The notes beneath the pieces were generated by a model, which did not search any database, was not told the DNA's origin, and saw only the letters and a list, made by a program, of their open reading frames with translations. Positions 13,678 through 47,099 of a stretch of 64,000 nt of DNA are shown here, one piece after another. Position numbers and translations under genes: made by a program. Source of the DNA: Podarcis gaigeae (taxonomy: Eukaryota). Position 1 is the stretch's first letter; the number at the start of each line of letters is the position of its first letter. The DNA lies in NCBI GenBank assembly GCA_964106915.2, contig OZ066918.1. One strand, written 5' to 3'.

Positions 13678-13807
13678 GGATTTTAAGGACGTCGAAGCCG
13701 CTTTGAATGCCATGAAGAACGTAGCACGACTCATCAACGAGAGGAAGAGGCGTTTGGAAAACATAGACAAAATTGCTCAGTGGCAAAGTTCAATAGAGGA
13801 CTGGGAG
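13678..13807 (+). CDS. ARHGEF4: ARHGEF4 coding exon, end of DH domain
   Basis: cgtag| (R)[43 protein letters not shown] |gtaaa; 130 nt, restores phase 0. Confidence 0.95.
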
Positions 13808-14389: not shown

Positions 14390-14727
14390 CAGGAGTGGAG
14401 AACCTCAGTGGCCGAATGTGGCCCTTTGGTTCTCTCTTTCTGTGACCCTAGGCCACACACCCTCACTAGTCCCGGTCCATGCCTTTCTGGAGGGCTTTTG
14501 CTTGGGTGAAATGTGTCCTCAAACTGTGATAAAGGCCACTTGATTCCTTGATGAAGAATGGATAGAAACCTTTGACTTCCGCATGCCTGGAATGTAGAAA
14601 ATTTGCAGAAGAGTGACTTTATTGCTCTGCTCACTCTTGCCTCCGGCCCCACCTACCACTTGCATGTGGCCCTCAGAAAGTTTTTCATGAATGTGGCCCT
14701 CTGGATAAATATGTTTTCCTACCTCTT
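14390..14727. mobile_element. Degenerate hAT-like element
   Basis: caggagtggagaacct left end; repeated atgtggccct subterminal motif; decayed right end. Confidence 0.45.
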
Positions 14728-14852
14728 ATTTAGGTCCACAAGCAAATGGTGGATGTCAAAGAGGCCATCTTCTCTTAGGTCAGCCACACTTCAGCCATAA
14801 TCCAACACAGAATGAAATGCATTTTAAAGCATGAATGCCAATAGGCTTAAGA

Positions 14853-15084
14853 TTTTTGCCTCATAAATCTTGGTTTTCCCCTGCCTGAACCTCCTTGCTG
14901 CCCATGGAGGGTAGCAAGGAGCAAGCACCACTGGCTCGTGATGTGACTGGAAACCTCCAAAGTTAAGCGTGATGTTTTGAGGTTTCTGGTCACATCAGGA
15001 TTCAATGGTGCTTGCTCCTTGCTACCCTCCATGGGCAGCGAGGAGGTTCAGGCGGGGGGAAACCAAGATTTATGAGGCAAAAAA
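14853..15084. repeat. Long inverted repeat (fold-back), ~105-bp arms
   Basis: tttttgcctcataaatcttggttt...gaaacctc / gaggtttc...aaaccaagatttatgaggcaaaaa; about 9 differences; ~20-nt loop. Confidence 0.92.
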
Positions 15085-15663
15085 CCTGGCAACGTTCCCC
15101 AGTGGGTTCTGGGGAGCTCACTGCATTCCGCTGTGCCGCACAAGCCATGTCTGCCAACAACAATGTATTTGAAGGACCACACCGTGAAACAGATTGTTTA
15201 TTTACAAGATGTAACGGAGGTGCTGCTTGTAAGACGAAAAAAAAGGCCAGCTGGAAGAACAATTTAACAGCAAGTGAAGGATGTCAACTGGACTCTAAAT
15301 AAGATGCAGCTAAATAATGATACAGCTATGTGGGTGATCATATGTTTGTATTAAATTAAATGAATTTGGATTGATTTGTAATAATTTGGGAAATTAATAA
15401 AAATAATTTGAAAAAGTAAAAAAAAGAACACCTAACTTTCTTGCGTTTGGCCTACTGGCAACAACCACTTTTATGTGTGTGTTTTGAGCTTTAATAGGGA
15501 AATATCTGGGAGTGCAAGGCTAGGAAGCTGTTTTTTTTTTTAAAAAAAAACAGCAACACTGTCCTGTTTGGCCCCAGAGTATCTCCACAATAGGCTGCTA
15601 TATATTACTTCTCAGCTTCTTTTGAGAAAGAAAATGACATGTCTCTTGTGTTGTGAGTGACAG

Positions 15664-15795
15664 GGTGAAGATGTCCTTGTGAAGAGTTCTGAACTTATCT
15701 ACTCTGGGGAATTAACCAAAATTTCCCAGCCTCAAGCAAAGAGCCATCAAAGGATGTTCTTCCTCTTTGATCATCAGCTTGTCTGCTGCAAGAAG
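15664..15795 (+). CDS. ARHGEF4: ARHGEF4 coding exon, PH domain N-terminal part
   Basis: gacag| [44 protein letters not shown] |gtaag; 132 nt. Confidence 0.95.
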
Positions 15796-18420: not shown

Positions 18421-18664
18421 GATCTCCTGCGACGTGACATCCTGTACTATAAGAGTCGAATTGGCATGGACAACATGGAGATTCTGGATGTGGAAGATGG
18501 GAAAGACAAGGACTTCAACGTCACCATTAAAAACGCATTCAAGTTGCACTGCAGGGACACTGAGGAAGTCCACTTATTCTGCGCAAAAAAGCCAGAGCAG
18601 AAGCAGCGTTGGCTCAAGGCCTTTGAGAACGAAAGGAAGCAGGTGCAGCTTGACCAGGAAACCG
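18421..18664 (+). CDS. ARHGEF4: ARHGEF4 coding exon, PH domain C-terminal part
   Basis: cttag| [34 protein letters not shown]...[21 protein letters not shown](G) |gtatg; 244 nt. Confidence 0.95.
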
Positions 18665-19151
18665 GTATGCAACAGTAGCTGGGGTTGCTACTTAAGGCAT
18701 TGTGCAGCCATTAAGCAGAGAAAACCCTTTCCCTAGAAGATTCTCACCTGCCCCACCTGAGCTGCATGTCAAACTTTTGAAATACTCTAATTTCCCTACG
18801 GATGTAACAAACGAAACATTGCCTAGGGTCCTATGTAACCTTTCTGTCTGATGGATGCACTGGTCTACTAGCGCCAAAGCATCTCCTGAGTCAGGGGTGG
18901 GGAGCCCTTTTCAGCCCAAGGGCTTCCTTCCCCCTTAGAGAAACTTCCAGTGGTGGGTGGGGCCAAAGGGAAAAGTGGCCAGAGCAGCGGGGCTGATTTC
19001 CAAGTCATTGTGCGCAGAATCAAGCTGCTAGTGTAATTTTTGCTTCTTGGGATTTTGAACCAAGGGGGGCCCCTTGGTTGCTGTGCGTGTGTTTCTATGA
19101 CGCACCTTGCAAAGGCACAGCTGAGCTAATGAGTTTTGTTTCATCTTCTAG

Positions 19152-22050: not shown

Positions 22051-22917
22051 AAGGAATCCAGCAACAGATAGAGGACCTCAGTTTCCCCACCTGGTCTAAA
22101 AGCTGATTCACATTACTTAAGGATTGTAAAATATGCATGTGAGACTGCAGCGTCAAGTGATGACTTGTATGTGGACATAATTTAACTTTTTACATAATTT
22201 CAAACATACCAAGATGGACCCCAAGATTTCAGAGCTTTTGCTGATGCAACGGGGCTTTCACATCTCCTTGCTGTTGCATCCCTTAAAGCAGGCCCTGTGA
22301 ATTGAATGGGATGCGGCAGGGCAGGGGAACTAAGCTAAGCTAACTCATTGCCTTCTGCTCACACAAGCAACCATTAAGACTAAACCCTTTATTTTTCAGT
22401 TTACATAACTGGCTGGAAGTCTTCAACGGATGAGAAATGATATGCATGCATCCTGTTTGAAGCTTTCTTTAGTGCAATTACACTTTGATAGCTCCAGCAC
22501 TCTGGGCTGTAGCATGGGATTTGGAGAGGCTAGATGCCAGTCCTGATATAGCCATCATGTACAAGATGACTCCTAATTTGTTAGTACTTTTCATCTCTTG
22601 AACTGTTTAATGTTGCGGGGAGGTAGCGTGATTTCCAAGCCATTCAATTGACATGAGTGAGGCTAGATTATAAAGCCACCAGGTTTTACAATGAGACTCA
22701 AAAGTGGTGTGCCACAACATGATCAAGAGCTAAGAACGCTTCTGTCAGATGTGTAGACCTGAAAATACCAATTGTATTAACGACACAGTTCAACCTAGCC
22801 AGCTACTAAGCGCAGAAGTATTTGAAGAAAAGTGTAGTAGTCATCAGAGAGAGGAAGTCCAATAGCAAAAGAATAAAAAAGACCAGTCTGGAAGTAATGT
22901 GCCAGAGTTGCCTTTGC

Positions 22918-23621
22918 TTAGAATCTTAGAATCATAGAGTTGGAAGAGACCACAAGGGCCATCGAGTCCAACCCCCTGCCAAGCAGGAAACACCATCAGA
23001 GCACTCCTGACATGGTTGTCAAGTCTCTGCTTAAAGACCTCCAAAGAAGGAGACTCCACCACACTCCTTGGCAGCAAATTCCACTGTCGAACAGCTCTTA
23101 CTGTCAGGGAGTTCTCCCCAATGTTTAGGTGGAATCTTTTTTCTTGTAGTTTGGATCCATTGCTCTGTGTCCGCTTCTCTGGAGCAGCAGAAAACAACCT
23201 TTCTCCCTCCTCTATGTGACATCCTTTTATATATTTGAACATGGCTATCATATCACCCCTTAACCTCCTCTTCTCCAGGCTAAACATGCCCAGCTCCCTT
23301 AGCCGTTCCTCATAAGGCATCGTTTCCAGGCCTTTGACCATTTTGGTTGCCCTCCTCTGGACACGTTCCAGTTTGTCAGTGTTCTTCTTGAACTGTGGTG
23401 CCCAGAACTGGACACAGTACTCCAGGTGAGGTCTGACCAGAGCAGAATACAGTGGCACTATTACTTCCCTTGATCTAGATGATATACTCCTATTGATGCA
23501 GCCCAGAATTGCATTGGCTTTTTTAGCTGCCGCGTCACACTGTTGGCTCATGTCAAGTTTGTGGTCGACCAAGACTCCTAGATCCTTTTCACATGTACTG
23601 CTCTCAAGCCAGGTGTCACCC
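22918..23621 (-). mobile_element. 5'-truncated CR1 LINE (ORF2 C terminus plus 3' tail)
   Basis: [18 protein letters not shown]...[16 protein letters not shown]...[11 protein letters not shown]...LEKRRLRGD...VRQWNLLP; tail ctatgattctaagattctaa. Confidence 0.95.
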
Positions 23622-24679
23622 AACAATGCTTGACCAATGCGAACTATGCAGTCAGGTGGCCAGTGCTGCAAATGAAAGCACTTTTTACTTGTTGCGTAAA
23701 TAGATCTCAGGAATTATCAGTCCCATGGGATAAATTGTATGCTGTAGTGTACAGCAGTACAGATCAAGTACTGGAACAAGGAGCAAGGGATTAGTGCTGA
23801 ACCAAGCCAGAACACCCCACAACTGGGTGGCAAGAACATCCTGCTGCTTTTAACAATGGTAGATGGGTGTGAAGTTAGTAGCCAGCAGAGCCCAGAAAAG
23901 GAATGCAACAACATAGCTTCCATTGTTCCAGGGATGTGGAACATTAAGCCCCCAAGAGTTGATTAAAGTCTATAAAGGATGGATAAAATGGATTAAAAGT
24001 CTAAAGAAAACAGGTGAAACTTGTGGAGTTACTAAGAATTTAATACCAAGAATTAAACATGCCTCTGCATCCATGTGAAACAGCTTTGTGTGGATCTGCC
24101 ACCACCCACTACTGGAATACTGGTCCAGACAAGTGCCCTCCATCCAAAAAACCCCGCCTCACACTTAGCTTGGTGCCTGACATACTTCAGAGTCCTCCTC
24201 ATATCCCATATAAACAGACAAGACTGCCATACTGCTGCTTTCAGAAGCTTCATAGAATAAGCAGAATTCTCATTTTTGGGTTTGTATATATACAGTATAG
24301 GAAATCTAACTTCCATAGAAGAATGTCAGCACAGGGAAAGCTCGTTATAATAATTCTCTGTGAAAGCATGCAGTAATATAGGATCTTTGATACCACCAGC
24401 AAAAGGGGAAAGTGAGCTATACCAACTGAAGGACTGATGCCTATTTAACACTTTTTTCATTTGAGTAAACAAAGCAGCTATTTTGATATGCTCTGGTTGA
24501 TTTGAAGTAGCAAGCTAAGCATACGAAGTTACATTACAGAGCAAGGGCAGGGAACCTGGGGCTCTCTGAATGTGCAGATGCTCCATCATCTCCAGCTAGC
24601 ATAGGCAACTGGAAGGTAAGATGGGAACTTTGAGACCTGTAGTTGTTCCAAGAAAAAAAAAACAAGACTAAAGGACCAC

Positions 24680-30382: not shown

Positions 30383-30495
30383 TCACCACTGTGGGGGCAC
30401 GTAGCTATAGGTTGGCGTTCCTGGGGCCCGATAGGTGGGCATTGTAACTGGGTGTGGGGCTACAGGAGTTGGGGAATGCGTTGTCAACAAGGTAC
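30383..30495 (-). CDS. FAM168B: FAM168B last coding exon
   Basis: ctcag| (G)[36 protein letters not shown]; exon continues 12 nt to a gtaagt donor after 30371. Confidence 0.95.
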
Positions 30496-30884
30496 CTGAG
30501 GAGCAAAGAATATTTTCATAATAATGTTGCTTTAATTTAGAAGTCAACATATCGATAAAAACTTACATAGGATTTAAAAGGAACATCGTTTTGCAAGCTT
30601 GTGGCCATGTGTCCCTTTTGCTCTCCCCCCCCCCCCCCAATTTTGTAGCAAGAAAAGGAGAGAAAGTTACACACCGAGAGGCAGGTATATCATCCTAGTT
30701 TGGGGCCGAGACAGCGTGTCTCATGATGCTACTTCATGTGTTACATGGAACAGGAAAGGTTTTTAGGAGTTCGACTCTCCCACTTCCTGCCCCAAGTACA
30801 TCTACATCCTCTGAGCAGCTCTTCAGCTTGCAGTATTTCCCCACTGTATAAAAATGCTTCATATAAAATTTATCAGTAGAATTG

Positions 30885-31262
30885 GGTGACATGGTTCATA
30901 AATCAAACCAAGCCAAATCATGGCTCTGAAGGAACACATGACTGTGTGAGATTTGAGAGAGGGGATCAAAGTCACTTTGTGCCTCCCCATTGCTCTGCTG
31001 GCTGTGACCATGGTTTGGTTTAGCATGTTGTCTAAACCTGGGATCATGGCTTAGCTCTCCTGGACAGACCTTAAGCTGTGTAAACCATAGGGCAAACAGC
31101 TTGTGGTTAGTCTGTGGAAAGCTAAACCATGACCCCTGCTTCACAGAACACACTAAATCAAGCCAGGACTCAGGGCAGTGCAGCAGCAGAATAACCAAGG
31201 AAGAGTAAAGAGGCCACAATCTTTGCCCCTGGAAGCCCACACTAAGCAATGTGTGAACCAGG
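30885..31262. mobile_element. Degenerate palindromic MITE (aaaccatggttt-type)
   Basis: ggttca...tgaacc ends; internal ccatggtttggtttagcatgttgtctaaacc / gctaaaccatg inversions; related pieces near 38970-39130 and 52735-52960. Confidence 0.5.
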
Positions 31263-31577
31263 CCAAAGTCTCAAGTTAAAATCCAACCACCACTCAAGTG
31301 TATGGGCAGCAGATTTCAGACAAATCAGAGTAGTTAATGCACATTAACTTGTGAAACTCATGTGCTACAGGATGATCTGACTTCTAGTCCTAAATGGCAC
31401 TTTTTTGAAATATTGTTATCAGTCATGGTAGCCAAGAAAGTACAGATATACAATATCCACTTATCACAAGTTGCACGAGAATTTACATGCATTATCAAAC
31501 TGGCCACACTGATTGCTATCAAGTGAGACTAAATACTGACCCTGGCCCAGAATGTAGTATAACAAAAATCTATTTAC

Positions 31578-31755
31578 CTGCTGACATTGCCATTGTGGTC
31601 CCAGCCACCATTCCCATAGTGACACCATTTCCTCTGGGGGGCGGAATTGGTGCTGGGTACATAGTTGCTGGCATTCCATTGGGTTGCACAACTGTAGTGT
31701 GATGAATTACGTGGGGTGGTGCTGCATATAAAGGCTGTGTGTAATAAGTGCCTTG
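31578..31755 (-). CDS. FAM168B: FAM168B coding exon
   Basis: aacag| [59 protein letters not shown] |gtaaa; 178 nt. Confidence 0.95.
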
Positions 31756-33192
31756 CTGTTGGGGAAAAATAGTTGGTTTAGTAAAATCCTTGCCACCACT
31801 GCATGCATCCTAAAAGGGCACACAAAACCATTTCAGGAAAAATACAATTAAGTTCAGACCACAGATATAATTTGGAGTGGTGGGGTGTGTGAGAGAGATC
31901 AAAGGCAGAAAATTACATCTCTTTCCTCCTCTGACATTACGACTCAGGTGGGAGTTGGACCCCTGAAAAAGCAAACAAACCCACAACACTTGCCTTGTTA
32001 ATCTCTAATTGAACTGTCACTATTCTCACACCTGAAGTCTCACATTTTGTTTCCAAAAAGCAAGATCGCCTTTGTACTGAGATCCTGTAATTTTATCAGC
32101 TTAAATCTTTGGGATAGTTTAATAAAGCAGGGTTATCTTTCTTTTTTGCTTCACCCTGCATGCCACAAGACAGTAATTCAGAATCCAGACATTTATGTCT
32201 ATTGTTTGTATTTGCAACTATTTCTCTTAAGAGAAAACAAGCATTTTAAAGATGGAGTTCATTCACAAGCCTGTTTCTATGCATGTTTATTTTTGTCTGA
32301 AGTTTGTCTCTGACATCTGTTAGGAAAGGGTGCACAGGAAGGTAGCTTTAGGTATATATTTATATGTGAATCTGGTCAAGTACAACACCCACAATTGGGG
32401 ACTTGCATAAAGCTAAAAGATTCTTTGCACACAGAAATCTAGACACCCAGGGGAAGGATTATATATAGCTTTTTACATCTGTGTTTTATATCCATGGAGT
32501 CTTAATGTGTGCAATGTTCCTACTTGCCATCTGAGTGGCAAAGCTCAGTTGCAGGTTTACACCTCAGTTATTTGTAGGCAGAGATTTTGAGGAAAGGTGA
32601 AAATTGAATCTAGAGGAGAGGGTGGAAGGCACAGAAAAAACCTTTTCAGCTGATGCAAGTAATTTTATCCATCTTGATACTTATTTTTAGGCCCCATTTT
32701 AAAAAGAGCTCATTTAATATTTATATAAATGCAAATCTTTCTTCCATGGTACTCGAGACAACATACTTATGGTTCTCAAGCAGTTTCTCACTCAGGCACC
32801 GGTCAGACCCTGGTCTCCTTAGGTGCAGCAAGTTTACTGTTTCATGTGCCTTCTTTCAGATCATTCAACTGAACCTTTTTTAAAGAATTGATTTATAAAA
32901 TTTCCATGCTGATACTGGGATATGTGGCCTACATTACTGTGCCCTTGCCACACAGCAGCCATATTTACCAAAACAATAACATCACCACATATTTCCAAGA
33001 ATGATAATGCTCAGAAAAATCAGATATTCCCACAAGTACAGTAACCTAACAGAGTAATGTAAAGCAAGAGCAACCGAAGTCAAAACTTTCTGCATAACAC
33101 ACTGATCCTACAGAAAATACTAACAGAGTAGAGAAGGATAGCATTCTGGGCTGTTACAGAATTAATGCAAACAGTAAATCTATATTTTTTAC

Positions 33193-33335
33193 CTGTGCAT
33201 ATGGATTCTGCTGTGGATAGGCACTTCGAACCGGATACACTGCAGTCTGATAGGGGTTGGGTGATGAAGAATAGGGAGGCACTGCACCACTGGTAGGTGA
33301 ACAGGAGACTTTATATGGTGTGCCTGGTGTATAAC
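33193..33335 (-). CDS. FAM168B: FAM168B coding exon
   Basis: tatag| (G)[47 protein letters not shown] |gtaaa; 143 nt. Confidence 0.95.
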
Positions 33336-34629
33336 CTATAAACAGAAAAAAACAAATTTAATTTTTTTTGCTGAGCGTTAATCAGATTTATTTAAGACAC
33401 CTGGGCACAAATGTGAGCCTTCCATTAAGCCGTTTGAATGCACATACATGCTTTCATAATTTCTAACAATCAAGCAGATTAATAAACCACAACAATTAGT
33501 AACATCCATTAAATTTTCTAGTGAAATAGAATCTGCTACCACACACAATTCAATAATCAAAAACAACAACAACAGAATATCGAAGAGTAGTACAGGTATT
33601 AAGGTTGGTCAATATAGTACTTGGGTTTTAGGTAAAGCACAACAGTTAGGTAAAGTTAGGTAAAGCACAACAGAAATGTTGTACTTTATTTACCAGATAT
33701 AGATATAGGGAAAACAAACAACACTCATCTTGTAATAATCTCTTACAATAACTTTCTTTAGATCTTGGAATACAAATACACACAGAGCGAAAAACAATAA
33801 TCCTGGATCCAGAACAGATCTGAACCTGGTTGCTAAAACCCCCAGGGGGTGGGGGCAAGGGGTTCAAGAGGATGGTGCCTAATTCTAAAATTGGGTAGGA
33901 TGTGGAGCTGGACGGACAAGGCACAATTATTAAAAAATGGAGGGATGCCCTGCACAGTGAGGGGACCTTGGTTCAAACAACCCTTGACCACCTTTTGCTC
34001 CAACAATCAAGAAAAATAATGGCTATACAGTGCACCTTCCTTCTCCACCCCACCCTCAGCAACAACAATCAGGAATACTGTGCACTGGTAAACAGTCCAT
34101 TACCCAATAGGTTGTAGCAGTATCCCCACATGCAGGGAATACCAAGGAAAGAATACACAGTGTCACCAGGAAGCCCCCGTTGTGCAAACCCCAGTAAACT
34201 CTGTGATGCACGCAGAAGGGAACATGGAGTACATGTTGGCGAATACCCAACACTCCTCTCCATCTTACTGCCAAAAACTTATGACTCATTTATCTTCACA
34301 GGATAAGAGCAAAAGACAAAAAGCAGAACAAACAAAATGCAGATAGTGTTCCATTGCAACTCCCTACATTGGATGATAAGGTTTAGTCTTAACTTCCTCA
34401 GTATGTGAATAACCAATTGCAAGTGCCAAGGAGACTACCCACGTGAGAGTGGGAACTAGGCTGAAGAACATCAACTGGAAGAGTATACAGGAGGCAGAAC
34501 CCTCTCTTGCACGTTCACCCTCTAATGAGCACCAAGTCACAGAACCCTACTGCGGGCAATACCTAATATTTACCATCCCCATGTCTCTCAACAGGGCACC
34601 AGGTTGCCTTCGACATACAGAGGGAAGAA

Positions 34630-34720
34630 ATCATAGAATCGAAGGGACCCCAAGGGCCATCTAGTCCAACCCCCTGCAATGCAGGAAACTCAACTAAAGC
34701 AACCATGACAGATGGCCATT
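34630..34720 (-). mobile_element. CR1 3' end fragment
   Basis: atcatagaatcgaagggaccccaagggccatctagtccaacccc. Confidence 0.75.
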
Positions 34721-35060
34721 TAACATCATATTCCAACCCGTAGTGTCATGCCTCCCAGAATCAAGGCCTATAATGGGAAATGGGAGTGGTGGAATTATCT
34801 GTGAGAGTTAATTAGGACATCAGTTCCTTTCCAGAGTACATGACAGACAAATGCCATGGATGCAACAGTACCTAGCATGGAGCTGGGGAAAGATGAACCT
34901 GCTACCTCTGTCTGTCACACTCCTTTCTCAAACATAGCAACAACAAAAAGTTTGGCTACTCAGTTTCTTTGTTTCAGAAATCCTCTGCAGATGCCAAACA
35001 AATATCACTATTCCCACCCAATGCTTTATATGGTTGACTTTGACATGTCTGCATACATAC

Positions 35061-35144
35061 CTGTTTGGAATGTAGGATTTGCTGCAGGGTACATATTTGG
35101 AGAATAGGCAGGAGCAGCAGCTGCATAGCCCATTGGGAATCCAG
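35061..35144 (-). CDS. FAM168B: FAM168B coding exon
   Basis: cttag| (A)GFPMGYAAAAPAYSPNMYPAANPTFQT |gtatg; 84 nt. Confidence 0.95.
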
Positions 35145-35567
35145 CTAAGAGAAAACAGTTGAAAATTACTTTTAGAAATACCTTCAATGATCTACTTGTA
35201 TTGTTTTCCAAGCTTACAACTAATTAAAATAAGGTGAACATGACTTTTTTCAATTGTATCTCTGTAATGTAATCAAGCCCATGATTAATATTGTGAGGCT
35301 TCAGGCTATAAACCAGGGGCATCCAATGTCGTGCCCTCCAGATGCTGTTAGGCTCTAAACCCCTCCAGCCCTTGCCAGCTGTAAGGCTACAGGACATGTC
35401 TAATCATGGCCATCTAACCCCTATGCTTCCAGGCCAACTGCACAAAGATAAAAAACTGCTTCAGTCAGCCAAAAAGAGGTTGAAATTATACAGTGCAATG
35501 TAGCCACTTTTCTGAGGAGATCTTCATAGGATAGGCATGAACAATAAACCAAATGTATTATATAGTA

Positions 35568-35827
35568 CAGGGGTCAGCAACCTTTTTCAGCCATGGGCCA
35601 GTCCACCATCCCTCAAACCATGTGGTGGTCCAGACTTAATTATTATTTTTTTTGGGGGGGGAAATGAACAAATTCCTGTGCCCCACAAATAACCCAGATA
35701 TGCATTTTAAATAAAAGCACACATTCTACTCATGTAAAAACATGCTGGTTCCCGGACTGTCCGCAGGCCGTATTTAGAAGGCGATTGGGCCACATCCGGC
35801 CCCCGGGCCTTAGGTTGCCTACCCCTG
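35568..35827. mobile_element. Non-autonomous hAT (Charlie-like) element, 260 bp
   Basis: TIR CAGGGGTCAGCAACCT / AGGTTGCCTACCCCTG; 8-bp TSD ATATAGTA / ATATGGTA (one mismatch). Confidence 0.85.
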
Positions 35828-36727
35828 ATATGGTACATTGCCACATATGAAATGGCTATGGATCTATTTCATTGTGTTTGTTGCCCATGCATCAGGAAGT
35901 TGTGATCAGGTGTGGATGCCAGCCAGATGCATAGGCTTCAGAATGGCAGGTGTCTATCCTTAATCTATACTATGCAAAGCCACTCCAACTCTCTAGAATT
36001 ATTTTTTTTAAAAAAATAACCTCTGCACAGTTATATGCTACTACTTGTGCATTCTGCTAATTCCAAAGTCCAATTAACTGTATTTTAGATGCTGGAGGAT
36101 GAGGACTGTAAAGCACTCCCATCCACATAATACACAGTAAATAGTAAATGCTAAGACCTTCAATATTACTACCACCCAGTATAGCACTTTTCCTATGTAT
36201 TCAGAGAACTGTTTTTAAGATTACAAAGTAGAACTGATACTAGGGACTCTTGTGGTTTGTACGAGCCTATGTGTGTAAGCGAGAAATTCAGCAGCAGGTC
36301 CTTAAACCCTGCTGCTGGGTGGGGGAGTCTTTTGCTTTATGACTCATTTTTGTAGACAAACCTTTAACTGATGTATGCTCTCTGTTTTGTAGTTTCATAT
36401 TTAATATGAGTCACTTCAGGAATTCTTTGTGGAAAGCAAAACACAGGTAAATAAAAAAAATAAAAAGCTCTAAATAATATTAAAGTCACCTCTAATATTC
36501 TCACTCTCAACTACTTTTTACAACAGGGAGATATTTTAATGAGTTATAACATAATAATTTATAATAGCATTCAAATGTATATTTTCAATGGTATGGACAG
36601 CCTCAAATGAGACAACAGCAACAGCAGACTATTTTGGCTAACTAAGCACTTCTACACGGAGAAACAAAGGGTGAAAAGCACAATGCTTTAAAGACACGCA
36701 CTGGCAGAAAACGATGTTAGGGACACA

Positions 36728-36897
36728 CAGGAAGCTACCGGGCCAGACCAGTGGCCCAACTAGCTCAGTAATGTCAACACTGACCTAGCAGCAATTCTGC
36801 AGGGTTTCAGGCAGGGAATCTTTCCCAGCTCTACCAGGATCAATCCTAGGACCATATGAATAGAAAGCAAATGCTCTGCCACTGAGCTATGGCCCTT
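36728..36897 (-). mobile_element. Old tRNA-derived SINE
   Basis: Minus strand gggccatagctcagtggcagagcatttgctt A-box head; related copies at ~44393-44480 (-) and ~48975-49130 (+). Confidence 0.65.
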
Positions 36898-37060
36898 CCT
36901 GTGTTCTCTTATCTGCAGTTAGTTACAGGACAAAGGTTAAGCCTGCATCCAAAGCATTTTTCTATTTGTATGTATTCTTTTCAAAATAAAAAGCAAGTTC
37001 AAAACTGGCCGGGTTCAGACATCATGAAAAACCAAATTGTGGCCTTAGCCTGAATGCTAA

Positions 37061-37200
37061 TCCCCACAACAACCCTGTGAGGTAGGTTAAGAGGCTGTGA
37101 CTGGCCCAAGGTCATCCAGTGAGCTTCATGACTAAGTGGGGATTTGAACCCTGATCTCTTAGGTCCTAGCCCAAGATTCTAACCACTGCACCACACTGGC
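37061..37200 (-). mobile_element. tRNA-derived SINE (MIR/Squam3-like)
   Basis: Minus strand gccagtgtggtgcagtggttaga...gggttcaaatcccc...tgaccttgggccagtca...cctacctcacagggttgttgtg. Confidence 0.75.
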
Positions 37201-37985
37201 TTCCTAGAGTACTTCTGCTATGGAACAGCTATATAAATCAAGTAGGTAAAGAAAAATTGCAAAAGCAAAATGTCACTTGGAGAAAGATTTGAAGTATTTC
37301 CCTTGGAGCTTAAACTTGTTTTATTCTGTATTGCTTTATGTGATGTTTCAATGTGTTGTAAACCGCTTTGAGATTTTTTTTCTTTAAAATATGAATGGTA
37401 TAAAAGTGAAATTAATTATAATAATAATAATCAAACTGCATGAAACAGTAAGTTGTTTATATGCTGCCATTTAAGAAAGGTTAGTTTAAGCTAAAACAGT
37501 TAGAAACCAGCAATTTAAACTAATGTTCAAATCACCTGCAGCTTTCAGAAATGCAGGTAGGAAAAAGTGTCTCCTCCAACCCAAACACTATACATAGTCC
37601 TTCCCATTCCTTGTGGCCTCAAAAGGGCAGAAACTATCAGCACAGCTCTCTGCCTAAACATAGATTTACACTGCAGGCATTGTACATTCCCTTGACCTTC
37701 TGGATTCTGGTAGTCTAAGAGCAATCCTCTGTTTGTGGCTGCCCTTACAGCCAAATAAAATGCCTCTGTGGTTCTGACATGACATGACAACACTCGGTCC
37801 ACTTTTCTCTCTGGAGCTATTTGTGCAGTCCACAGGCAATATGTGAAGTTTGTCACTCAGGTACTTACTTGGGAGTAACTGCTACTGCTCTACACCAATG
37901 CATCCTGAAGTTAGGTTTACTACAATGTCCAGTTTGATTAATAGACAGCACCCAGGTAATACATTTAAGAGATTCAGTTACATAC

Positions 37986-38055
37986 CTGGATAACCAATTC
38001 CTTTGGCATTTGCATAGGGAACCCCAGATGATCCAGGACTATAAACAGGATTCAT
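37986..38055 (-). CDS. FAM168B: FAM168B first coding exon (myelin-associated neurite-outgrowth inhibitor, MANI)
   Basis: ATG at 38055-38053; MNPVYSPGSSGVPYANAKGIGYP |gtatg; exon acceptor at 38066; total CDS 588 nt = 195 aa. Confidence 0.95.
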
Positions 38056-39468
38056 GATTTCGGAAACTATAGGGGGAAAGCATTTGTATAGAAAAAGAAT
38101 AGGGAGTCTTAGTCATCAACGTTCAACTAAAATGTGAAGCAGTAGGAATCCAATATTATCAACTACATTGCCACAAAGTCCCTCTTAATAAGTCCTTTAT
38201 TTTAATTGTGCAACTAAGATTTTGTTAACATATATGGCTATATGTTGTACCTTTCATGATATCTGGGGATGTATTACATGAGATGCAATAAAACTGTCAA
38301 CAGTTGTTACTGCTATCTAGAAAAAGAACCATTTCTCAAGAGTGGTCTTTAATTTATAACAGGTAGACAAAATGGCACACCTCAAATGGTGTAATCCCAA
38401 ACACATTTATTCACTCAGTATCACAAAAGGTTAATGACTCTTGCTCTCCTTTTAAGTATGCTTGGGATTGCAGTCTAAAGCACTGTAGATGAGCACAATT
38501 GACAAAGATGAGACAAGCAGTTTCTGACACTACGTTTTGAAGTGCGGTTCATAGTCTGTCTTTACTTTTGAAAACAAGATGTCCCATATAAAGACGGTGT
38601 CTGTCAAGAGCAAAAAGAAGCCCCACTGTGACCTACGGAGCTTACTCATTACAGCATGCTTAGGATTCCATCCTTAAGTCACCAAAGACTTGTCTTGCCA
38701 TCGTGCGAAGTACATAATGCAACTATCTGGGAGAAATTGAGCAGTTTTCAGCCTGATGGCTGATTGGCTGGGAAACTGTCTGGGAACTCAATGTACAGTA
38801 TGTTGCCTGCAGTTCCATGATGGAAAAAAAAAGTGGACTATAAATGTACTAGACAAATAAGCAAAACATACTACTAGTTTGGCTTCTTGGTGTTCGGTCA
38901 ATAAGTAGAGCACAACAAATATAAGGTGAGAAACCGGTGGCATCACCTACCATGATGTGTGAGTGAATTCAAGCATAGTTTAAGTCAGGGTTCAGTATTA
39001 TGAGAACAAGCCTCTGGCCTGAGTGCTTTCCCACTCCTCTTGCATGGGGACAAGGTGACCACAAGCCTCTACTTCCATTTTAGATTAACTGCAGTTTGGT
39101 GCCCCATGAGAAACAAACTATGATTAATCCCAATGACAGTTGAAACAGCGCAAGTGGAAAGGTTTTCTCATCCATCCATGTAATTGAAATCAATACGCAC
39201 TACAGCATATAAGATCAAGCTTACACATTTCATTTTGGAAATGAAGCTATGTCCCCCAGACTACGTATGGGTAATAGTTCATAAACTTCATGAACTATGG
39301 CTTAAAGTTAATGATGGGTTGTCAATATATGCATGACAACAGCAAGCTATGATAGGGCGTTTGTACTTTTAAAATTTGTGTAAAGAAGAAATTGAGGCAG
39401 CTGCCGTTTCTTTCACCCCTTTGTGACAAACTATCATTGCCAAAATTCCACTTCTTTAAAAGTAAGTA

Positions 39469-39831
39469 CAGTGGTGCCTCGCTAGACGAAATTAATCCGT
39501 TCCGCGATTCTCTTCGTCTAGCGGTTTTTTCGTCTTGCGAAGCAAGCCCATTGACAGCTTAGCGGATTAGTGCTAGAGCTGTCAAGCGGCTTCCAGCGAT
39601 CAGCTGTTAAGCGGCTTATCAGCGGAACAGCTGATAAGCGGCTTAGCGGCTTAGGAAAAGGGCAAAAAAAGCAAAAAAAAAAAAAAACCCGCTGGGGGAC
39701 GCAAGATTTTTTCGTCTTGTGAAGCAACCCCATAGGGAAATTCGTTTTGCGAAGCGCCTCCAAAACAGAAAAACCCTTTCGTCTAGCGGGTTTTTCGTCT
39801 TGCGAGGCGTTCATCTTGCGGGGCACCACTG
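39469..39831. mobile_element. Tc1/mariner (Tigger-like) MITE, 363 bp
   Basis: TA|CAGTGGTGCCTCGC...GCGGGGCACCACTG|TA; CpG-rich, so probably young; homologous to 50944-51238. Confidence 0.92.
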
Positions 39832-39862
39832 TATCCCTGTTCTCAGTCACATATGGTAACTA

Positions 39863-40058
39863 AAACAAAACAAAAAAAATTCTTTCCAGTAGCACATTAA
39901 AGACCAACTAAGTTAGTTCTTGGTATGAGCTTTCGTGTGCATGCACACTTCTTCAGATACCTCATACCAAGAACTAACTTAGTTGGTCTTTAAGGTGCTA
40001 CTGGAAAGAATTTTTGTTTTGTTTTGACTATGGCAGACCAACACGGCTACCTATCTGT
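39863..40058. mobile_element. Penelope-like retroelement remnant (inverted pseudo-LTR) with hammerhead motif
   Basis: 12-bp TSD ATATGGTAACTA (39851-39862, 40059-40070); ~65-bp inverted arms around ctttcgtgtgcatgcacacttcttcagatac; tail cagaccaacacggctacc. Confidence 0.8.
39922..39961 (-). ncRNA. Minimal type I hammerhead ribozyme motif
   Basis: Minus strand GGUAU-CUGAAGA-A-GUGUGCAUGCACAC-GAAA-GC-UC-AUACC: stem I, CUGANGA box, stem II, GAAA box, UC cleavage site. Confidence 0.7.
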
Positions 40059-43019
40059 ATATGGTAACTAGAGAGAGAAAAGCCCACTTTTCGTGTATGC
40101 TTAAAGAACCACGTTATGGCCTGTGTTGCAAGCAATTATTGAAAGCCGATTCTAGGTTTGAAATGATTGGAGGTTACAGTTGTAGAACACTGATCACAAT
40201 ACTCAAGGGTGCAAATATGAGGGATGTGTAAGCACCTTAACTGTGTCTTTATTTTCAACTCAAGACCTTTCAGAACTGAATCACTGGAGTGCTTTTCACA
40301 CTTTTCTGAGTACTTAAAGAGCAATTTAGCTCTTCTGGATTGCAGACATCTTATGTTATTAGTCTACTGATATCAACAGAACCTACTTTCCTTCAGTGCA
40401 CTTAAGACTGGGGCATAAGGGAAACAGCATCAAAAATAATAATTTTACATTGCAAAATGCTGGTAAAGTTGTGTCTGGCCCTAGCATTTTTTGAAAGACC
40501 AGAATGTACACCATTTGAATCATAATCAAAAATATTCATTTAAACTAACCTAGTGACAATAGTTTACAGAACAGAATTCCAAAGAAGCATTGTACCTCCG
40601 TAATTCTGAAGAAAATTATAGAAAAGTGGGTCAATGATGATTCTTCCACAGCTTGAGGCCTTAAATGCAAGATTATTCTGATATTGTTCATTTCTATATC
40701 AGCAAAAAATCAATCTTAAGTGTGCAGCACTAATGCTCTGGAACTCTCTGCTTATTAACATCAGGCAGGCACCTTCACTGTACTAACACCTGATAAAAAC
40801 TTATTTGTTTAGGAAAGTATACTCAATTTGTTTTTAAAAAAATGTATACTAGCTGATGTTATTTTTAAATAACCATTTTAGTTATTCTACTTTATGCAAA
40901 CTGCTTAAAGATGTTTATCTTTTGATTAAGTGGTCTATAAATTATGTTTAATACATAGATTAGAAAACAAGGAAACTGACCTCTAGTATAAATGCCACTT
41001 CTGCCAATAATCCTCCTACAACATTTTGATGAAATTAGTAGTGAAACTGGGTAGGATAAACTGAGCTAAGATGAAGCTGTTTGATGAACAGAAAGCATAC
41101 TTATATATATATATATAAAAACTAGACACTTTTTGGGCTGAAGGGTGAACTGCATGTATCCCACAGATAACAGTGTTTGAGAAGTTCTGCTGTTTTATGA
41201 GCTTCAAACTTTTATAACATTTACAATTATAGGCTTCTCTAAAAAGATTATATCTGAGAAGACAGAAAGTCTAGTCAAATTAGTAGGGTGCTACTATCAA
41301 CATCTTACATTTTTATGATTATGTTTAAATCCTCCTCATGTCTTTGCAAAAAATAAGCAACCTAAAGAATAAAATGTATGTGTTTAGGTGTTAGAAGAAC
41401 ATATGTCGTTAAAAGTTATGTGGGTACCCTGAAAACCCAAGACAAGACTAGAGTGGCAGTAGGTCTTGAAAGATGGGGAAAGTTATAGGGAAGAAACATT
41501 AGTTAAAAGAATTTCAAAACTTGACTTTCAGGACACAATGACATTCACAATGCAGTGTACAAAGTTTCTCAGTGGAAACATAACATATGAAACCATCATA
41601 TTAAAGCCACATTACATTATCTCTTTAAAATAAACAATACCAATTAATTTAAAATACAGAATGAAATAAAAATGGCCAAGTTTTCTCTTTAGAAGTTTCA
41701 ATAATCAGGCCACAAGTATTTTCTGAGCAAGGTAATTCCACAAATATGTGGCCACCATCAAGAATCTGGTCCTTGGTATTAATCATTACTTCTTTTATTG
41801 ACAAGATAGAGAGCAGGGCCTCAGAAGATGGTCTTAAGGCCCAAGTTGGCTGACAACTGCAAGTGGGTTCTGGTTCCAAATCAGATAACCTGGTTCCTAA
41901 TAAGGCCAAAATCAAGAAAATCAGGTTGACTGCTCCGCTGACCACAAAACTAAAAACAGTAATATTCTGCTGCCTAGAAGTTAGAACTGAATGCAAATGG
42001 CCAGAGAATTGACAAAAAGGAAAACTGTAGCAGAAACAGCTGGAAAGGGTATAGTCATAGTGAAGAACAACTAACAGAAACAAACGAGTTACTGCTCAGG
42101 GTTATGACAATGACAAGCTAAGTTCTAATGTAAGGCATTTGGTTTATTCAAGCATGATATAGATGGCACAAATATAGAAAAAGAAAAGCTCAAATGCCAG
42201 ATGTGAGGATACTTTGTCTGCCTGTTAGCTTGTATTCAAAAAACAAAGCAAACTCCAATCTATCCCTTTCAGAGTAAGGTTAAAATCAAGGCAGCACACA
42301 TGGCAGCAATGTTTCTCCATTACTATATGGTTGCAATCCTAGAGATTAGATTAAGATGTACAGACAAGAGCCAAATATTGTTATTAAGGAAACTCTCAAA
42401 CCACACTTGATAATAATTAAAACAGACAACACAAACATATTCTTTGGCTTATAATGTCATTAAAAAGTATTTTAAACAAGTGATACCAGTCTACTGCAAA
42501 TCAGTCTAAAAGGCCTTCAAGTGCTCTATTTTTATTATAGAGATGACTATAGAGCAAGTTGGATAAAAAAATTAAGGAAAACATCATGAGGGTATCATTA
42601 TGTATATTCTGTATTTGATGTTTGGACTTAGAGCCATTTCAAGGATGATCTGCCTTATCTGTGCACATATGCAACCTGAATTGGTATACCCAAATATGGA
42701 AACTAAGGTCCAACGGATATTTAAAGGATCCAGTTTAAGGAACATGGCTGCTAAGACAAGACCTGCTTTAAACAAGTTAGCCATTGACATATTGCAAGGA
42801 CACTTGAACCTCTTTGGCAAACTGCTCCAAAACATACATAGCAAGTCTCAGAATGTGCATATACAACATATGCCTAAAATGAAGTGATGGGCAGCCCAAT
42901 CCTGCATGTTTATTTGGAAGCATTAAGTGGCACCGTAGGGTGATAAGAAAATAGCCGTGCAATCTGGTCCACATGTCTATGTTAAAAAGCCATCAACTGC
43001 TTTCAGTGGAAGCTACCTC

Positions 43020-44330
43020 CATGTCAGCGTGCACAGACAGGCCTGCTGCCATTAAACACGCGAGACCCACGAAGCCCACCCACGTTATTCAAGACTGAGC
43101 CTTGAAAGACACAGCAGGTAGGTATAACGGGCGCGATCGTCTCTCTCAGAGACCGCCTCCAATAAGCGCAAACCGGTTTAAATCCTAAAACGCCGTTTTC
43201 TTTGTCACCGCGGAGCGTCGGGGAAAAGTAAGCGGCCCAAGAAATTCCAGGGCAATTGAGCAGATCCTTTTCTGTGCAAGAGACGCAGCCGCCCCCGCTC
43301 CCAAAGCTAGGCCGAGAAAAGCCTTTAAAGTGACCTCTCCCCCCTCCCCCAGCACAAAATAGAAGGAGAAAGACTGGGGAGAGTTAATGCGCCCGCAAAG
43401 CATCGCCGTTAAGCAGCACGGCTAGGTGCAAAAAGGGAAAGGAGAAGGGGGGGGGGAATATGCGAAGGAACGAAAGCGGCTGATCGCCCCCGGAAAACGC
43501 GAGGAGCAGAGCTGCTGCAGGTCGCCCGCGGGCGCGAGTCTGCGGCCCCGGCCTTGCCTCGGCCAAGCATCCCTCGCCCGGGGCCTTGCAAGGGAACTGA
43601 CTGCAGCGCCGCCGGGGAGCGACTAGGCCAGCCAAGGGGAGGGAGCCCGCCGGGCAGCTGTTCTGGCCGCGGCCCCGAAAGCCTGCAGAGGCCGGGAGCT
43701 GCAGGTACGAGGACGGCCGACCACCTCGGCCTCCCCTCAGGGCAGGGGCTGCGGGGGGGGGGGGCGCTCCTTCGCTTACCAGACTGCGGCGCTTCGTCGC
43801 GGCGGCGGCCCCGGCCCGGCTGTCGCTCTCTCGCTCTCGGGGCCTGAGGCGGGAGGGTGCCAAGCCTGGGCGGGGTGTGTATGTGTGTTAGTGCCGCCTG
43901 GAGCTGCCGCTACCACAACTACGAGCCCTTCCTGGCTGCGCCTTCCCGTCTCTCTCTCTCTCTTCCAGAGAACTGCGCAGCAACCTAGCGGCCCAAAACG
44001 TCACATCCGCCCGTCGGCTGGGTGCAGAGGATGGACGGCGGTGGCAGCGACGAGAGCCGCGCGCGCCTGAAGCCCCCCAAAGCGAGCAGAAAGCCGCTGT
44101 CACGTGCGGGGGGAGAAAGGCTCCTTCGCTGCCGCGGCTCCCTGTCACGTGGTCGCAGGAGCCGTCGCGCTCTGCTGTTCTACCCCCTCCCGCCCCCTCA
44201 AACTGCAAAAGAAGCAAAGGAGTCGACGGCTGTTTTGTTTTTTTAACTGCTATTTGTTTAGGTGGCCTCTGGGCTGGTCACGTGTAGGAGGCTGGAGGCG
44301 CGCGCGCGCACACGCTTTCTCGGGGTCATT
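43020..44330. promoter_or_regulatory. CpG island / FAM168B promoter
   Basis: Dense CpG and high GC; three GTCACGTG E-boxes (44099, 44144, 44277) and a (GC)n tract near 44298. Confidence 0.85.
43780..43980 (-). other. FAM168B: FAM168B non-coding exon 1 (5' end approximate)
   Basis: Donor ctg|gtaagc on the minus strand at 43780/43779 inside the CpG island. Confidence 0.6.
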
Positions 44331-47099
44331 TGCACCTGTAAGGCACATGCTCAATATTGTCTTGGACCATCAGAGCGGGAGTGGGGAAGAGAGGAAGCTG
44401 CTTATCCCGAGGCAGGCTGATGGCCTATGTAGCTCGGTGTTGTCTGCACTGACTGGCAGCGTTTGTCCGCCCTTCCTCGACATGCTCTGGAATTGAGCTT
44501 GGGCAGTTCCCCTTGCAGAACTCGAAAGCTTGCGTGCAATTCTGTGTTATTTTGGTTTGCCTAATAAATGTATAAGGTGTAAAAGACAGAGGACAGGGGG
44601 AAATTTCCGGGGTTACAATCACTTCAGGAGCCTGTCCTGCTCCTCCCTTCCACTACCTGTTTCTCTCATGGAGGCTGTGCAGTTGGAGAAAGAAACAATG
44701 GTGGTTCACAATCAAAATAAAACACTGCAATGCAGTCAGTTAAAACTTAAACTACACAATCCATTAAACACAGTCTGCATTCTTTTGCACTGCATATTTT
44801 GAGACCAGGGAGTTTTTTAAAATGTTGGAGCCGGGTAGCTATCCCAATATTGATTAAGAGCACAAAGATGCTTATGGCAGCCAGCCACCTTCCTGAGAGG
44901 ACATGCTTGCATAACTATTTCTGGTATTGTTTTGGAGCCAAGGTGACTCATTCCTGTACGATAATGATTGCCCATAATACAGTTTAATAGTTAGATGGCG
45001 GATAAGGAGGGCGCCAGAAGGCTAAAATTGTAAACGGGGGAAAGGCTTTTATTGGGTTCCTAAATCACAAAGAGTTTTCTACTCACATTGAAATCAGTGC
45101 AACTAAAAGACCCCTGCAGAACTTCCGTGCTCAGTGTGGGATAGATTGAGCGCTGAGCAGAGAAGCGTTGAGGTGGGGTGTTGGGCACAGGGCTTGCATA
45201 TATCCCACTGTCCACGAATTCAGCATTTGTTAGTTGGGGCAAATGCCCGAACAAATGTGAAAAGGGGATTCTGATGAAGTCAACTCTAATACACAAATGT
45301 TTACATAGTAATATAGCGTAACATAATAATGTTAGTTTTTAAGGTGCCCCCAGACTCTTCATTGGTTTAACACAACTTGCCTTCTGGAAGTTGCTGAAAG
45401 GAAACAAAGGTGTGTGTCTTCAGAAAATGCACTGCAGAACTGTGCATCTTACTCTTCTGTAACAAAAAACCACCTCACACACATGTATGCATTTATAAAT
45501 CTTATCTATTTGTAACTGCCATTCTTAACCAATAAAATATGTTTAGGCATTCTGCATAACAAAGAGAATATGAGAGCATTCAAATCAATAATGTTTTAAT
45601 ATCTTTCATACAAATCATATTAAGGAAGTGAGAAGGAACATACCTTACTTTCTCTGTGGTGGTCCCCTACCTTTCACACATTTGGGTGTGCATGAAAAAA
45701 AGGTCATTTCATTTTATTCATTTTCAGCATTGTTTCATGATTTATTTGGCAATATCATATTTGCTTGCTGCCTTTGGCAGTGGTGGCAGTAATTTAATTT
45801 CATCAGAATTTCCTGGATGTTGCATCTGGGACATGCTGCTGAGAAATGGGAGCTGCCTTTTTTGTAGCAGTCATTGGTCCTGAAGCACAGCCTTATTCAC
45901 AACCCATATTTCCAGCATATTTAACTCCACTGATATCAGTGTACCTAAGCATACTTTACTGTGTGGTGAACTGTCCTTCTTGTACTGGAGATTTAGAGTT
46001 GAATTATTTATTGTGAAGTTATTTCTTAAATTTATGAAAAATAAAGAAAAATTCTCTCTCGTATTTCTTGAAATATTGTTGGGGACATTACTGTGAATAA
46101 AGAATCTTAGGCAAAGTTTATATGTGATATTTAAACTCAAACTTAGGTTTTCATTCTAGGATGTTATGGTATCTCATTGTTCTTGGTTTATGACTTATGC
46201 AAAAGCATGCATATCTGCATGCTATTTCCATAGGCCCTGATCCAGCAAGCCTTGTTCACATGTGCTAGCTTTCCTGGATCTTGGAATAGTTTTAACAGTT
46301 TGTGGTGTGTGTTGCATTTCAGACAAAAACGAAATCCTCTCCCTTGTGTTTCCTTGGATTGTTTTGTTGTTGGACAAAAGCAAAAAATAATTATGTAATT
46401 ACCCTACCCCCCCCTTCAAAACCAGAGCCGAAACATTTTGCTTTAAAAGCACTTTGGCAAGGGAAATTTCCCTCCCATATGTCAGTTCCAACCACAGATT
46501 CAATTACTATTGTTTTCTCCCAAGTGGGCCAATATGAAGTCATGAAAGATTTTATTATTATTTATTATTATTAAATTTGTATACCACCTATACCCGCAGA
46601 TCTCAGGGTGGTTTCCAACAATATTTCAAGAAATTAAAGATTTGAAGTTTGTATTTAAGGTGTCACAATAGTTTTTATAATAGTAGTATTTCATGATTAT
46701 AATAGTACTTCATGAACATTATTTGAATAGAAAAGTGTACAACCCATCTGGAGTGAGAAACACAGTAATATGTTGTATCTATTCAGAGACTACATGTACT
46801 GTACATGCAACTATTGCTATTTTGTGATAGTACTTTAAGATGAGGTTGACACCAAAATTTCAGCATACCCGCTTGCTTGGAAGATATTACGGTAGATATC
46901 CTACTTCTTCCAACAAGCACGACGCTGCCAAGATTGGCACCTCCAACTATGTGCCGAAGGCTGCAATCCTAAATCAGGTGTGCAGGGGAGGTGGGAGAGT
47001 TGTGGCCACGCAGATGTTGAATTCCAACCATCAGTATGGCCAGTAGTGGGAGAAGATGGGAGCTGTAGTCCACCAACTTCCTCCATCCCTAACCCTAAA

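What the first reader, a model, noticed from the sequence alone, without database searches (positions are those of the whole stretch)
39851..40070. Hammerhead-ribozyme core in a fold-back Penelope-like insertion, sense to the FAM168B pre-mRNA
Seen: a 196-bp insert between 12-bp direct repeats (ATATGGTAACTA). On the minus strand, which is the FAM168B transcript strand (intron 1), it reads GGUAU CUGAAGA A GUGUGCAUGCACAC GAAA GC UC AUACC. That gives stem I (GGUAU/AUACC), both catalytic boxes, a self-complementary stem II and a UC cleavage site, while stem III is reduced to the palindrome AGCU. Known: Penelope-like elements carry such minimal type I hammerheads, which are thought to cleave as dimers by pairing that palindrome. 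Inference: each FAM168B pre-mRNA carries one monomer that could cleave only if paired with another copy, which could make intron cleavage conditional on family expression. The class is known; activity at this locus is unproven.
Basis: partly seen in the sequence, partly recalled or inferred. Interest (0 to 1): 0.75.

Follow-up and report, generated by a model that had tools for sequence, protein, structure and literature searches.

The report
Folded-back Penelope stub with locked hammerhead
This is one of more than 11,000 copies of a self-cutting-RNA motif spread through this genome by a Penelope-type jumping gene, and in this copy a mirror-image arm is predicted to pair over the cut site, so it likely does not cut the FAM168-family transcript in which it likely sits.

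Summary
In detail: a 196-bp insert between 12-bp target-site duplications carries a minimal type I hammerhead on the minus strand, the strand of a FAM168-family gene. It is the 3' end of a Neptune-type Penelope-like element (RT + CX4CxxC + GIY-YIG ORF). The exact 35-nt core occurs 11,067 times in the genome, and inverted stubs with their own TSDs are common. The regulatory reading is not supported. The inverted arm pairs with U16.1, C17 and stem I, so the cleavage-competent fold costs 13.9 kcal/mol, against 1.2 for a free arm and a 2.5 gain from dimer pairing. A contig from a relative about 2% diverged lacks the insert. No RNA data were laid. Side result: 57 of 100 copies end 0-6 nt upstream of the core, about 31 nt below a TATA box, and one end class has a cap-like G excess (65%), suggesting copying to the RNA's 5' end; the other class has T instead. 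The scan noted a mirrored copy of what is probably this family before (e1-9527109). Known kind; low interest.

The parts
39851..39862 (.). Target-site duplication, left copy (12 bp)
   Evidence: an organism D contig joins the flanks with one copy (record 25)
39863..39960 (-). Sense arm: 98-nt 3' pLTR fragment of a Penelope-like element, from stem I of the hammerhead to the T-rich tract
   Evidence: 95-97% identical to the pLTR behind RT/GIY-YIG ORFs in L125-L128
39923..39960 (-). Minimal type I hammerhead: stem I 39960-39957 with 39926-39923, CUGAAGA 39956-39950, unpaired A 39949, stem II 39948-39935, GAAA 39934-39931, palindrome AGCU 39931-39928, C17 39927
   Evidence: same layout as the turtle min-HHR in the supplement of PMC4209133
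39961..39961 (-). Junction G: last base of the inverted arm and the position of the family's extra G; gives the fifth stem I pair
   Evidence: native base is T; G 1,591, A 498, C 344 genome-wide
39961..40026 (+). Inverted arm: second copy of the pLTR segment starting at C-U-C17, without the catalytic boxes; in the minus-strand RNA it pairs with 39929-39866
   Evidence: 66 aligned columns, 1 mismatch, one 2-nt gap; folding
40027..40058 (+). 32-nt 'tail' present on the inverted arm only
   Evidence: 30-40-bp one-sided tail described in PMC3846280, PMC8557442, PMC11167929
40059..40070 (.). Target-site duplication, right copy (12 bp)
30386..38055 (-). Coding exons of the host FAM168 (TCRP1)-family gene, likely FAM168B; ATG at 38055
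43001..44500 (-). CpG island with a candidate first-exon donor at 43779; places the insert in the inferred 5' UTR intron
   Evidence: inferred, no RNA support

Best explanation
This is a short, inverted, head-to-head stub of a high-copy Penelope-like retrotransposon (likely Neptune clade), likely made in a single insertion event, and its hammerhead is predicted to be locked by its own mirror arm, so it is likely a neutral intronic passenger of the FAM168B pre-mRNA. Shown: the parent ORF, copy number, TSD, one-sided tail, unique junction, arm complementarity over the cleavage site, and absence from a relative's contig. Inferred mechanism: the GIY-YIG endonuclease nicks both target strands 12 bp apart. 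Each 3' end primes reverse transcription inside the element RNA, at the two sites that flank the 32-nt tail, about 65 and 100 nt downstream of the cleavage site. One cDNA runs through the uncleaved hammerhead to the RNA's likely 5' end at stem I, the other stops at C-U-C17, and the two are joined head to head. When the host intron is transcribed, the inverted arm is made first and pairs with the sense arm in a 64-bp hairpin; stem I and the dimer stem III would not form. The likely RNA-level consequence is a double-stranded stem open to A-to-I editing or small-RNA processing, not self-cleavage (untested).
For: Parent: the sense arm is 95-97% identical to sequence 187 nt behind the stop of 706-720-aa ORFs that score above the Pfam cut-offs for RVT_1 and GIY-YIG (2 of 2 ORFs scanned), with YIDD and a CX4CxxC linker. 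Copy number: 11,067 exact cores, 0 for the reversed control. Architecture: all 40 scored of 681 candidates match at least 179 of 196 query positions; 27 of the 30 best have their own 9-17-bp TSD and varied junctions; this exact junction plus core occurs once, so the fold-back is not amplifying as a unit. In 100 position-ordered cores, 44 have an antisense copy of the cleavage site within 380 nt upstream (mirrored pairs count twice). Arms share two subfamily markers in 26 of 26 scorable copies, and neither arm is nested in the other, which fits two primings on one source RNA. Locking: 13.9 kcal/mol alone or with 150 nt of flank, against 1.2 for the free arm; C15.2, U16.1 and C17 are paired with probability about 1. 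Age: one 5,376-nt contig of organism D covers 39000-39468 and 40059-40900 with 15 letters between and 23 substitutions in 1,311 bases. Literature: both-strand cleavage and extension and two internal RT starts flanking the tail (PMC11167929); inverted pLTR, tail and TSD (PMC3846280, PMC8557442).
Against: No RNA reads were laid, so cleavage, editing and the exon 1 position are unobserved. Folding energies are equilibrium values without Mg2+, proteins or editing; heavy A-to-I editing or helicases could loosen the hairpin. The core is fully intact, including the CpG at G12 that has decayed in some copies, although youth explains that. A third arm marker disagrees in 8 of 26 copies, which a single clean template does not explain. 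Clade assignment rests on a linker motif shared by Neptune and Nematis, not on a tree. The absence is seen in one contig of one run, and all four runs come from one study.
Confidence: 0.85

Rival explanations
1. One reading: the monomer pairs in trans with another family RNA and cuts the FAM168B pre-mRNA, which makes intron cleavage depend on family expression.
For: Intact core and AGCU palindrome on the transcribed strand; thousands of potential partners; dimeric min-HHRs showed low but detectable cleavage and an anole PLE hammerhead was protein-assisted (PMC4209133, PMC11167929).
Against: Opening costs 13.9 kcal/mol against a 2.5 gain; the blocking arm is transcribed first; the insert is absent in a close relative; no RNA ends were found at the site even for the anole element (PMC11167929).
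Confidence: 0.04
2. The insert affects the host, but as a hairpin and not as a ribozyme: a 64-bp dsRNA that would be edited or diced, or that alters splicing of the 5' UTR intron.
For: -110 kcal/mol hairpin; it resembles miRNA precursor models, all below their gathering scores; the T-tract plus the TSD's TAG form an acceptor-like site at 39860; an earlier scan note reports editing of what is probably this family's RNA (e1-9527109, not tested here).
Against: No RNA evidence at this locus; young and lineage-limited; thousands of similar hairpins exist, so editing would not imply function; the T-tract is itself paired in the hairpin.
Confidence: 0.1
3. The fold-back arose by self-priming on an antisense template, or by later DNA repair, and not by two primings on the sense RNA.
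For: PMC3846280 interprets head-to-head PLE palindromes as self-priming on an antisense template; two markers are identical between arms in 26 of 26 copies.
Against: Each arm has sequence the other lacks (catalytic core on one, tail on the other); a third marker differs between arms in 8 of 26 copies; ends cluster at a sense-strand promoter distance. This rival changes how the stub was made, not the verdict that it is locked.
Confidence: 0.2
4. The 196-bp fold-back is a non-autonomous unit (MITE-like or retrozyme-like) that amplifies as such.
For: Many near-full-length look-alikes.
Against: Junctions differ from copy to copy, and this junction plus core occurs once; it is not a head-to-tail tandem of hammerhead units, which defines non-LTR retrozymes (10.64898/2026.07.22.740005); TSDs are 9-17 bp and variable.
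Confidence: 0.03

Closest known systems
[quoted passage not shown]
   Same: CUGANGA, an unpaired base before stem II, G-C closing pair, short stem I, no stem III beyond a palindrome; the turtle entry has a 4-bp stem I and GCU-H after GAAA; most copies are single motifs from truncated elements; opposite-strand pairs were noted.
   Different: The hits seen in their supplement were turtle, pit viper and python entries, not this sequence (file 1 not searched). Here an antisense arm masks the cleavage site.
EN+ Penelope-like elements, Neptune clade (as described in PMC8557442 and PMC3846280; passages read)
   Same: RT plus C-terminal GIY-YIG ORF, CX2-5CxxC linker, hammerhead in the pLTR, 5' truncation, inverted 5' copy, 30-40-bp one-sided tail, short TSD, TATA and Inr-like motifs in the pLTR.
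   Different: This copy has no ORF. A sharp family-wide 5' stop at stem I with an extra G was not described in the passages read. No phylogeny was run.
Poseidon_Ac (PAc) of Anolis carolinensis (Frangieh et al. 2024, PMC11167929; read parts 1-2 of 4)
   Same: Internal RT initiation at two sites flanking the tail, both strands cut and extended, uncleaved RNA used as template, hammerhead weak without protein.
   Different: Penelope/Poseidon clade, without the Zn-finger linker; its ORF starts in stem II. Different sequence family.
Non-LTR retrozymes (10.64898/2026.07.22.740005; part 1 of 5 and passages read)
   Same: Small, non-coding, PLE-derived, type I hammerhead; about 42-44% of Xenopus copies overlap introns.
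   Different: Retrozymes are head-to-tail tandems with at least two hammerheads. This is a head-to-head pair with one core.

Membership tests
Minimal type I hammerhead (PLE min-HHR) | Catalytic boxes CUGANGA and GAAA, U16.1 and H17 | tested here: met
   CUGAAGA, GAAA, U, C17 at 39956-39927
Minimal type I hammerhead (PLE min-HHR) | Stem II starting G-C after one unpaired base; short stem I; palindromic 15-16 region | tested here: met
   A + GUGUG/CACAC; GUAU/AUAC; AGCU; compared with the supplement of PMC4209133
Minimal type I hammerhead (PLE min-HHR) | Competent fold accessible in its own context | tested here: not met
   13.9 kcal/mol above the ensemble in this copy, 1.2 in the free arm; computed, not measured
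Minimal type I hammerhead (PLE min-HHR) | Self-cleavage as a dimer | not testable with these tools
   needs in vitro transcription
Rfam hammerhead families | Covariance-model match | tested here: not met
   none among 20 hits up to E = 10 in 39500-40400, none among 36 in L107 and L099; the motif lacks stem III
EN+ Penelope-like element | Sequence belongs to the pLTR of an RT + C-terminal GIY-YIG ORF | tested here: met
EN+ Penelope-like element | Inverted 5'-truncated copy, one-sided 30-40-bp tail, short TSD | tested here: met
   66-nt inverted arm, 32-nt tail, 12-bp TSD; 27 of 30 relatives have TSDs
Neptune clade | CX2-5CxxC linker between RT and EN | tested here: met
   CNKPRCQLC at residue 543 of the L126 ORF; also found in Nematis
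Neptune clade | Placement in an RT phylogeny; match to a Repbase or Dfam entry | not testable with these tools
   no reference PLE set or repeat library was available
Non-LTR retrozyme | Head-to-tail tandem with two or more complete hammerheads | tested here: not met
   one core, head-to-head arms
Domesticated intronic hammerhead (HH9/HH10 type, recalled) | Single-copy, conserved across lineages, with a full stem III | tested here: not met
   11,067 exact copies, absent in organism D, no stem III, no Rfam match

The most novel reading that the evidence does not exclude
The genome records the element's transcription start: a Pol II promoter in the pLTR (CCAAT, CCCCTCCCC, TATA at -37/-35) fires at the first bases of hammerhead stem I, and because reverse transcription starts only about 100-140 nt downstream, most events run off the capped 5' end.
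Probability: 0.4. Interest if true: 0.55.

Novelty: new member of a known kind. Interest (0 to 1): 0.2.

Why it matters
For FAM168B it probably does not matter: a young, lineage-limited repeat stub with a sequestered ribozyme. The value is in the family statistics. About three quarters of the 11,067 exact cores lack the native 11 bases upstream (2,889 keep them), with ends piled at -4 and -6 and base-specific junction signatures. That gives a directly testable model of where PLE transcripts start and how the inverted insertions form, which the papers read describe as unresolved. It also shows how to pick copies for a test of host-RNA cleavage: unmasked sense-strand copies or natural tandems such as L107, not fold-backs like this one.

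Tried and rejected
Rfam: no hammerhead family up to E = 10; only miRNA-precursor and other models below their gathering scores, which reflect the hairpin. Sequencing runs: no RNA holder listed on record, so no test of expression, cleavage ends, editing or exon 1; contigs cannot show RNA ends. The exon 1 splice remains untested. Cap-G model at the -6 end class: rejected for that class; the base at -7 is T in 79, G in 11 and C in 10 of the first 100 of 2,111 listed (counted by eye). Stem-I microhomology as the source of the G excess at -5: mostly rejected; only 124 of 1,591 are CTTG-GTAT, and G stays at 63.5% without them. A spliced 5' exon joined at the acceptor-like CAG/TGTAT (D. virilis Penelope has an intron ending at helix I): not supported; the 6 copies ending at -5 and the 16 ending at -6 share no upstream sequence, though a very short exon is not excluded. 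Fold-back as a self-amplifying unit: rejected. Presence of the insert in organisms A (second sample), B and C: contigs run only 24, 28 and 21 letters into the tail, below the 31-letter bridging rule, so this is a weak hint only. PLEKHB2-type neighbour beyond 44.3 kb: no Pfam hit in 43 plus-strand ORFs of 62 aa or more. Orientation bias of cores in introns: not testable without annotation. Literature: seven searches were answered. Searches listed no paper on a cap-G or a stem-I 5' stop in PLEs, and one search found no paper holding all five terms on reptile intronic hammerhead cleavage; the library lacks most subscription journals, Repbase and Dfam. File 1 of the PMC4209133 supplement and the bioRxiv supplement could not be seen and may list this family. 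A sequence look-up in earlier scan notes gave two unrelated bacterial hits.

Full report
What is there. On the minus strand it reads: a 32-nt tail, a 66-nt inverted arm, then a 98-nt sense arm that starts with GUAU-CUGAAGA and ends in a T-rich tract. The arms align over 66 columns with one mismatch and a 2-nt gap, and the whole folds at -110.2 kcal/mol (z = -16). The plus strand has no catalytic core. Rfam has no hammerhead hit up to E = 10, but the layout matches the minimal PLE hammerheads of Cervera and de la Pena, including their turtle example.

Host gene. Pfam TCRP1 (FAM168) matches four minus-strand exons at about 30.4-35.1 kb and the ATG exon at 38055. A second, roughly 100-kb FAM168 gene lies on another contig. 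The compact size and a convergent SH3-RhoGEF-PH gene (4 of 99 plus-strand ORFs carry these domains at E <= 0.001, plus one weaker RhoGEF piece) fit FAM168B by recalled synteny. A CpG island at 43-44.5 kb with a donor at 43779 puts the insert in the inferred 5' UTR intron. No RNA confirms this.

Parent element. Copies with more upstream sequence lead into a GIY-YIG-like reading frame. A protein search gave 4,005 candidates, 150 scored. Four long-frame loci were fetched and hold ORFs of 635-725 codons, followed by the same arm at 95-97% identity. Both ORFs scanned pass the Pfam cut-offs for RVT_1 and GIY-YIG. L126 has YIDD and a CX4CxxC linker, and in L125 and L127 the core begins 187 nt after the stop. 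This is an EN+ Penelope-like element of Neptune type by motif; no tree was built. The genome is probably a squamate's, an inference from its size and repeats.

How ordinary the locus is. The exact 35-nt core occurs 11,067 times, one per 137 kb. The 196-nt query matched all 40 scored of 681 candidates over at least 179 positions. Of the best 30, 27 have their own 9-17-bp TSD, junctions vary, and this junction plus core occurs once; L007 and L008 are one duplicated segment. So fold-backs are made anew at each insertion. In the first 100 cores by position on contig C1, 44 have an antisense copy of the cleavage site within 380 nt upstream (mirrored pairs count twice). One contig of organism D, 1.8% diverged in the flanks, joins 39468 to 40059 with 15 letters between, lacking this insert and the neighbouring transposon. 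Contigs of a second organism A sample and of B and C run 21-28 letters into the tail, a weak hint of presence. All four runs are from one study.

Can it cleave? Constrained folding gives 13.9 kcal/mol to reach a competent fold, alone or with 150 nt of flank, against 1.2 for the free arm or for a native copy starting at -4, and 4.2 for a native copy with 60 nt upstream. C15.2, U16.1 and C17 are paired with probability about 1. The intermolecular AGCU duplex returns about 2.5. The blocking arm is transcribed first, so kinetics favour the hairpin too (inference). These are equilibrium predictions without Mg2+, proteins or editing. Published minimal hammerheads were silent as monomers and weak as dimers. 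The anole PAc hammerhead needed the element's protein, was dispensable for insertion and left no read ends in RNA-seq. It is better tested elsewhere: 10 of 24 short unmasked cores and 14 of 24 long unmasked cores cost under 5 kcal/mol, and L107 holds a natural tandem.

How it was probably made. Each arm has sequence the other lacks, and the arms end at the two sides of the tail. PAc cuts and extends both strands and starts RT at two internal sites flanking its tail. Two subfamily markers agree between arms in 26 of 26 scorable copies (4 of 30 not scorable), while a third disagrees in 8 of 26. I read this as two primings on RNA from one source, joined head to head. Antisense self-priming, proposed in PMC3846280, remains a rival.

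A family-wide side result. Of the 100 cores, 57 end 0-6 nt upstream of CUGAAGA (18 at -4, 16 at -6), 14 end at 8-56 nt and 29 run 60 nt or more. Genome-wide only 2,889 of 11,067 keep the native 11 upstream bases. The pLTR has CCAAT, CCCCTCCCC and TATATA at -37, and some copies have TATATATAAG; the two TATA registers, -37 and -35, lie 31 nt from -6 and -4. Where a non-native base precedes GTAT it is G 1,591, A 498, C 344: 65% against about 30% expected from composition, and 63.5% after removing 124 stem-I microhomology junctions. An extra G at full-length L1 junctions is attributed to the cap. Against a simple version: the -6 class (2,111 copies with a non-native base at -7, counted with a slightly shorter core) is preceded by T in 79 of the first 100 and by G in 11. 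D. virilis Penelope has a TATA-less internal promoter with an intron downstream that ends at helix I, and the native CAG/TGTAT resembles an acceptor. No shared upstream exon was seen. I give the capped-start model 0.4. Searches listed no paper describing it, within a library that lacks most subscription journals.

Papers seen: PMC4209133 (parts 1-2 of 4; supplement file 2 passages; file 1 not searched), PMC11167929 (parts 1-2 of 4), 10.64898/2026.07.22.740005 (part 1 of 5 and passages), and passages of PMC3846280, PMC8557442, PMC2377424 and PMC11702581. An earlier scan note on this genome (e1-9527109) reached the same class for a mirrored copy and reports RNA editing; I did not test the editing.

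Verdict. Real motif, known class, new unremarkable member, probably inert at this locus. Interest 0.2.

Noticed in passing
window 39467-39833: A roughly 365-bp non-autonomous DNA transposon with 24-bp terminal inverted repeats and TA at both ends, 17 bp from the PLE insert. It is absent from the organism D contig, and the B and C contigs leave the window sequence at its left edge, so it may be younger than the PLE insert.
   Followed up: partly
G000 genome-wide; Two sharp 5' end classes of the family: G-GTAT (1,591 copies) and T-GTGTAT (79 of the first 100 of 2,111). The first fits cap copying; the second is unexplained.
   Followed up: yes
L001-L030, position GGAA[A/G]G of the arms: One site differs A/G between the two arms of the same insertion in 8 of 26 copies while two other markers never differ; possibly an RT error hot spot or editing of the RNA or cDNA.
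   Followed up: no
L107, about 500-600 (G000:C1:5570057-5570183): A natural tandem of two complete cores 42 nt apart, each starting GGTAT, next to an inverted third core: a ready-made candidate double hammerhead.
   Followed up: no
window 39860-39925, minus strand: The sense arm's T-tract and the TSD's TAG form an acceptor-like site at 39860, with a branch-point-like ACTAAC about 60 nt upstream; both are paired in the hairpin.
   Followed up: no
L007, L008, L011, L014, L018: G-to-A changes in CACGAAAG (mostly the CpG at G12) would inactivate the core; the window copy retains it.
   Followed up: no
window 22844-23713, minus strand: A 289-codon open frame resembling the end of a CR1-type LINE ORF2 (recalled resemblance).
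   Followed up: no
window 8968-18675, plus strand: SH3, RhoGEF and PH exons of an ARHGEF4/9-type gene convergent with the FAM168 gene; a second CpG island lies at 47-48 kb.
   Followed up: partly
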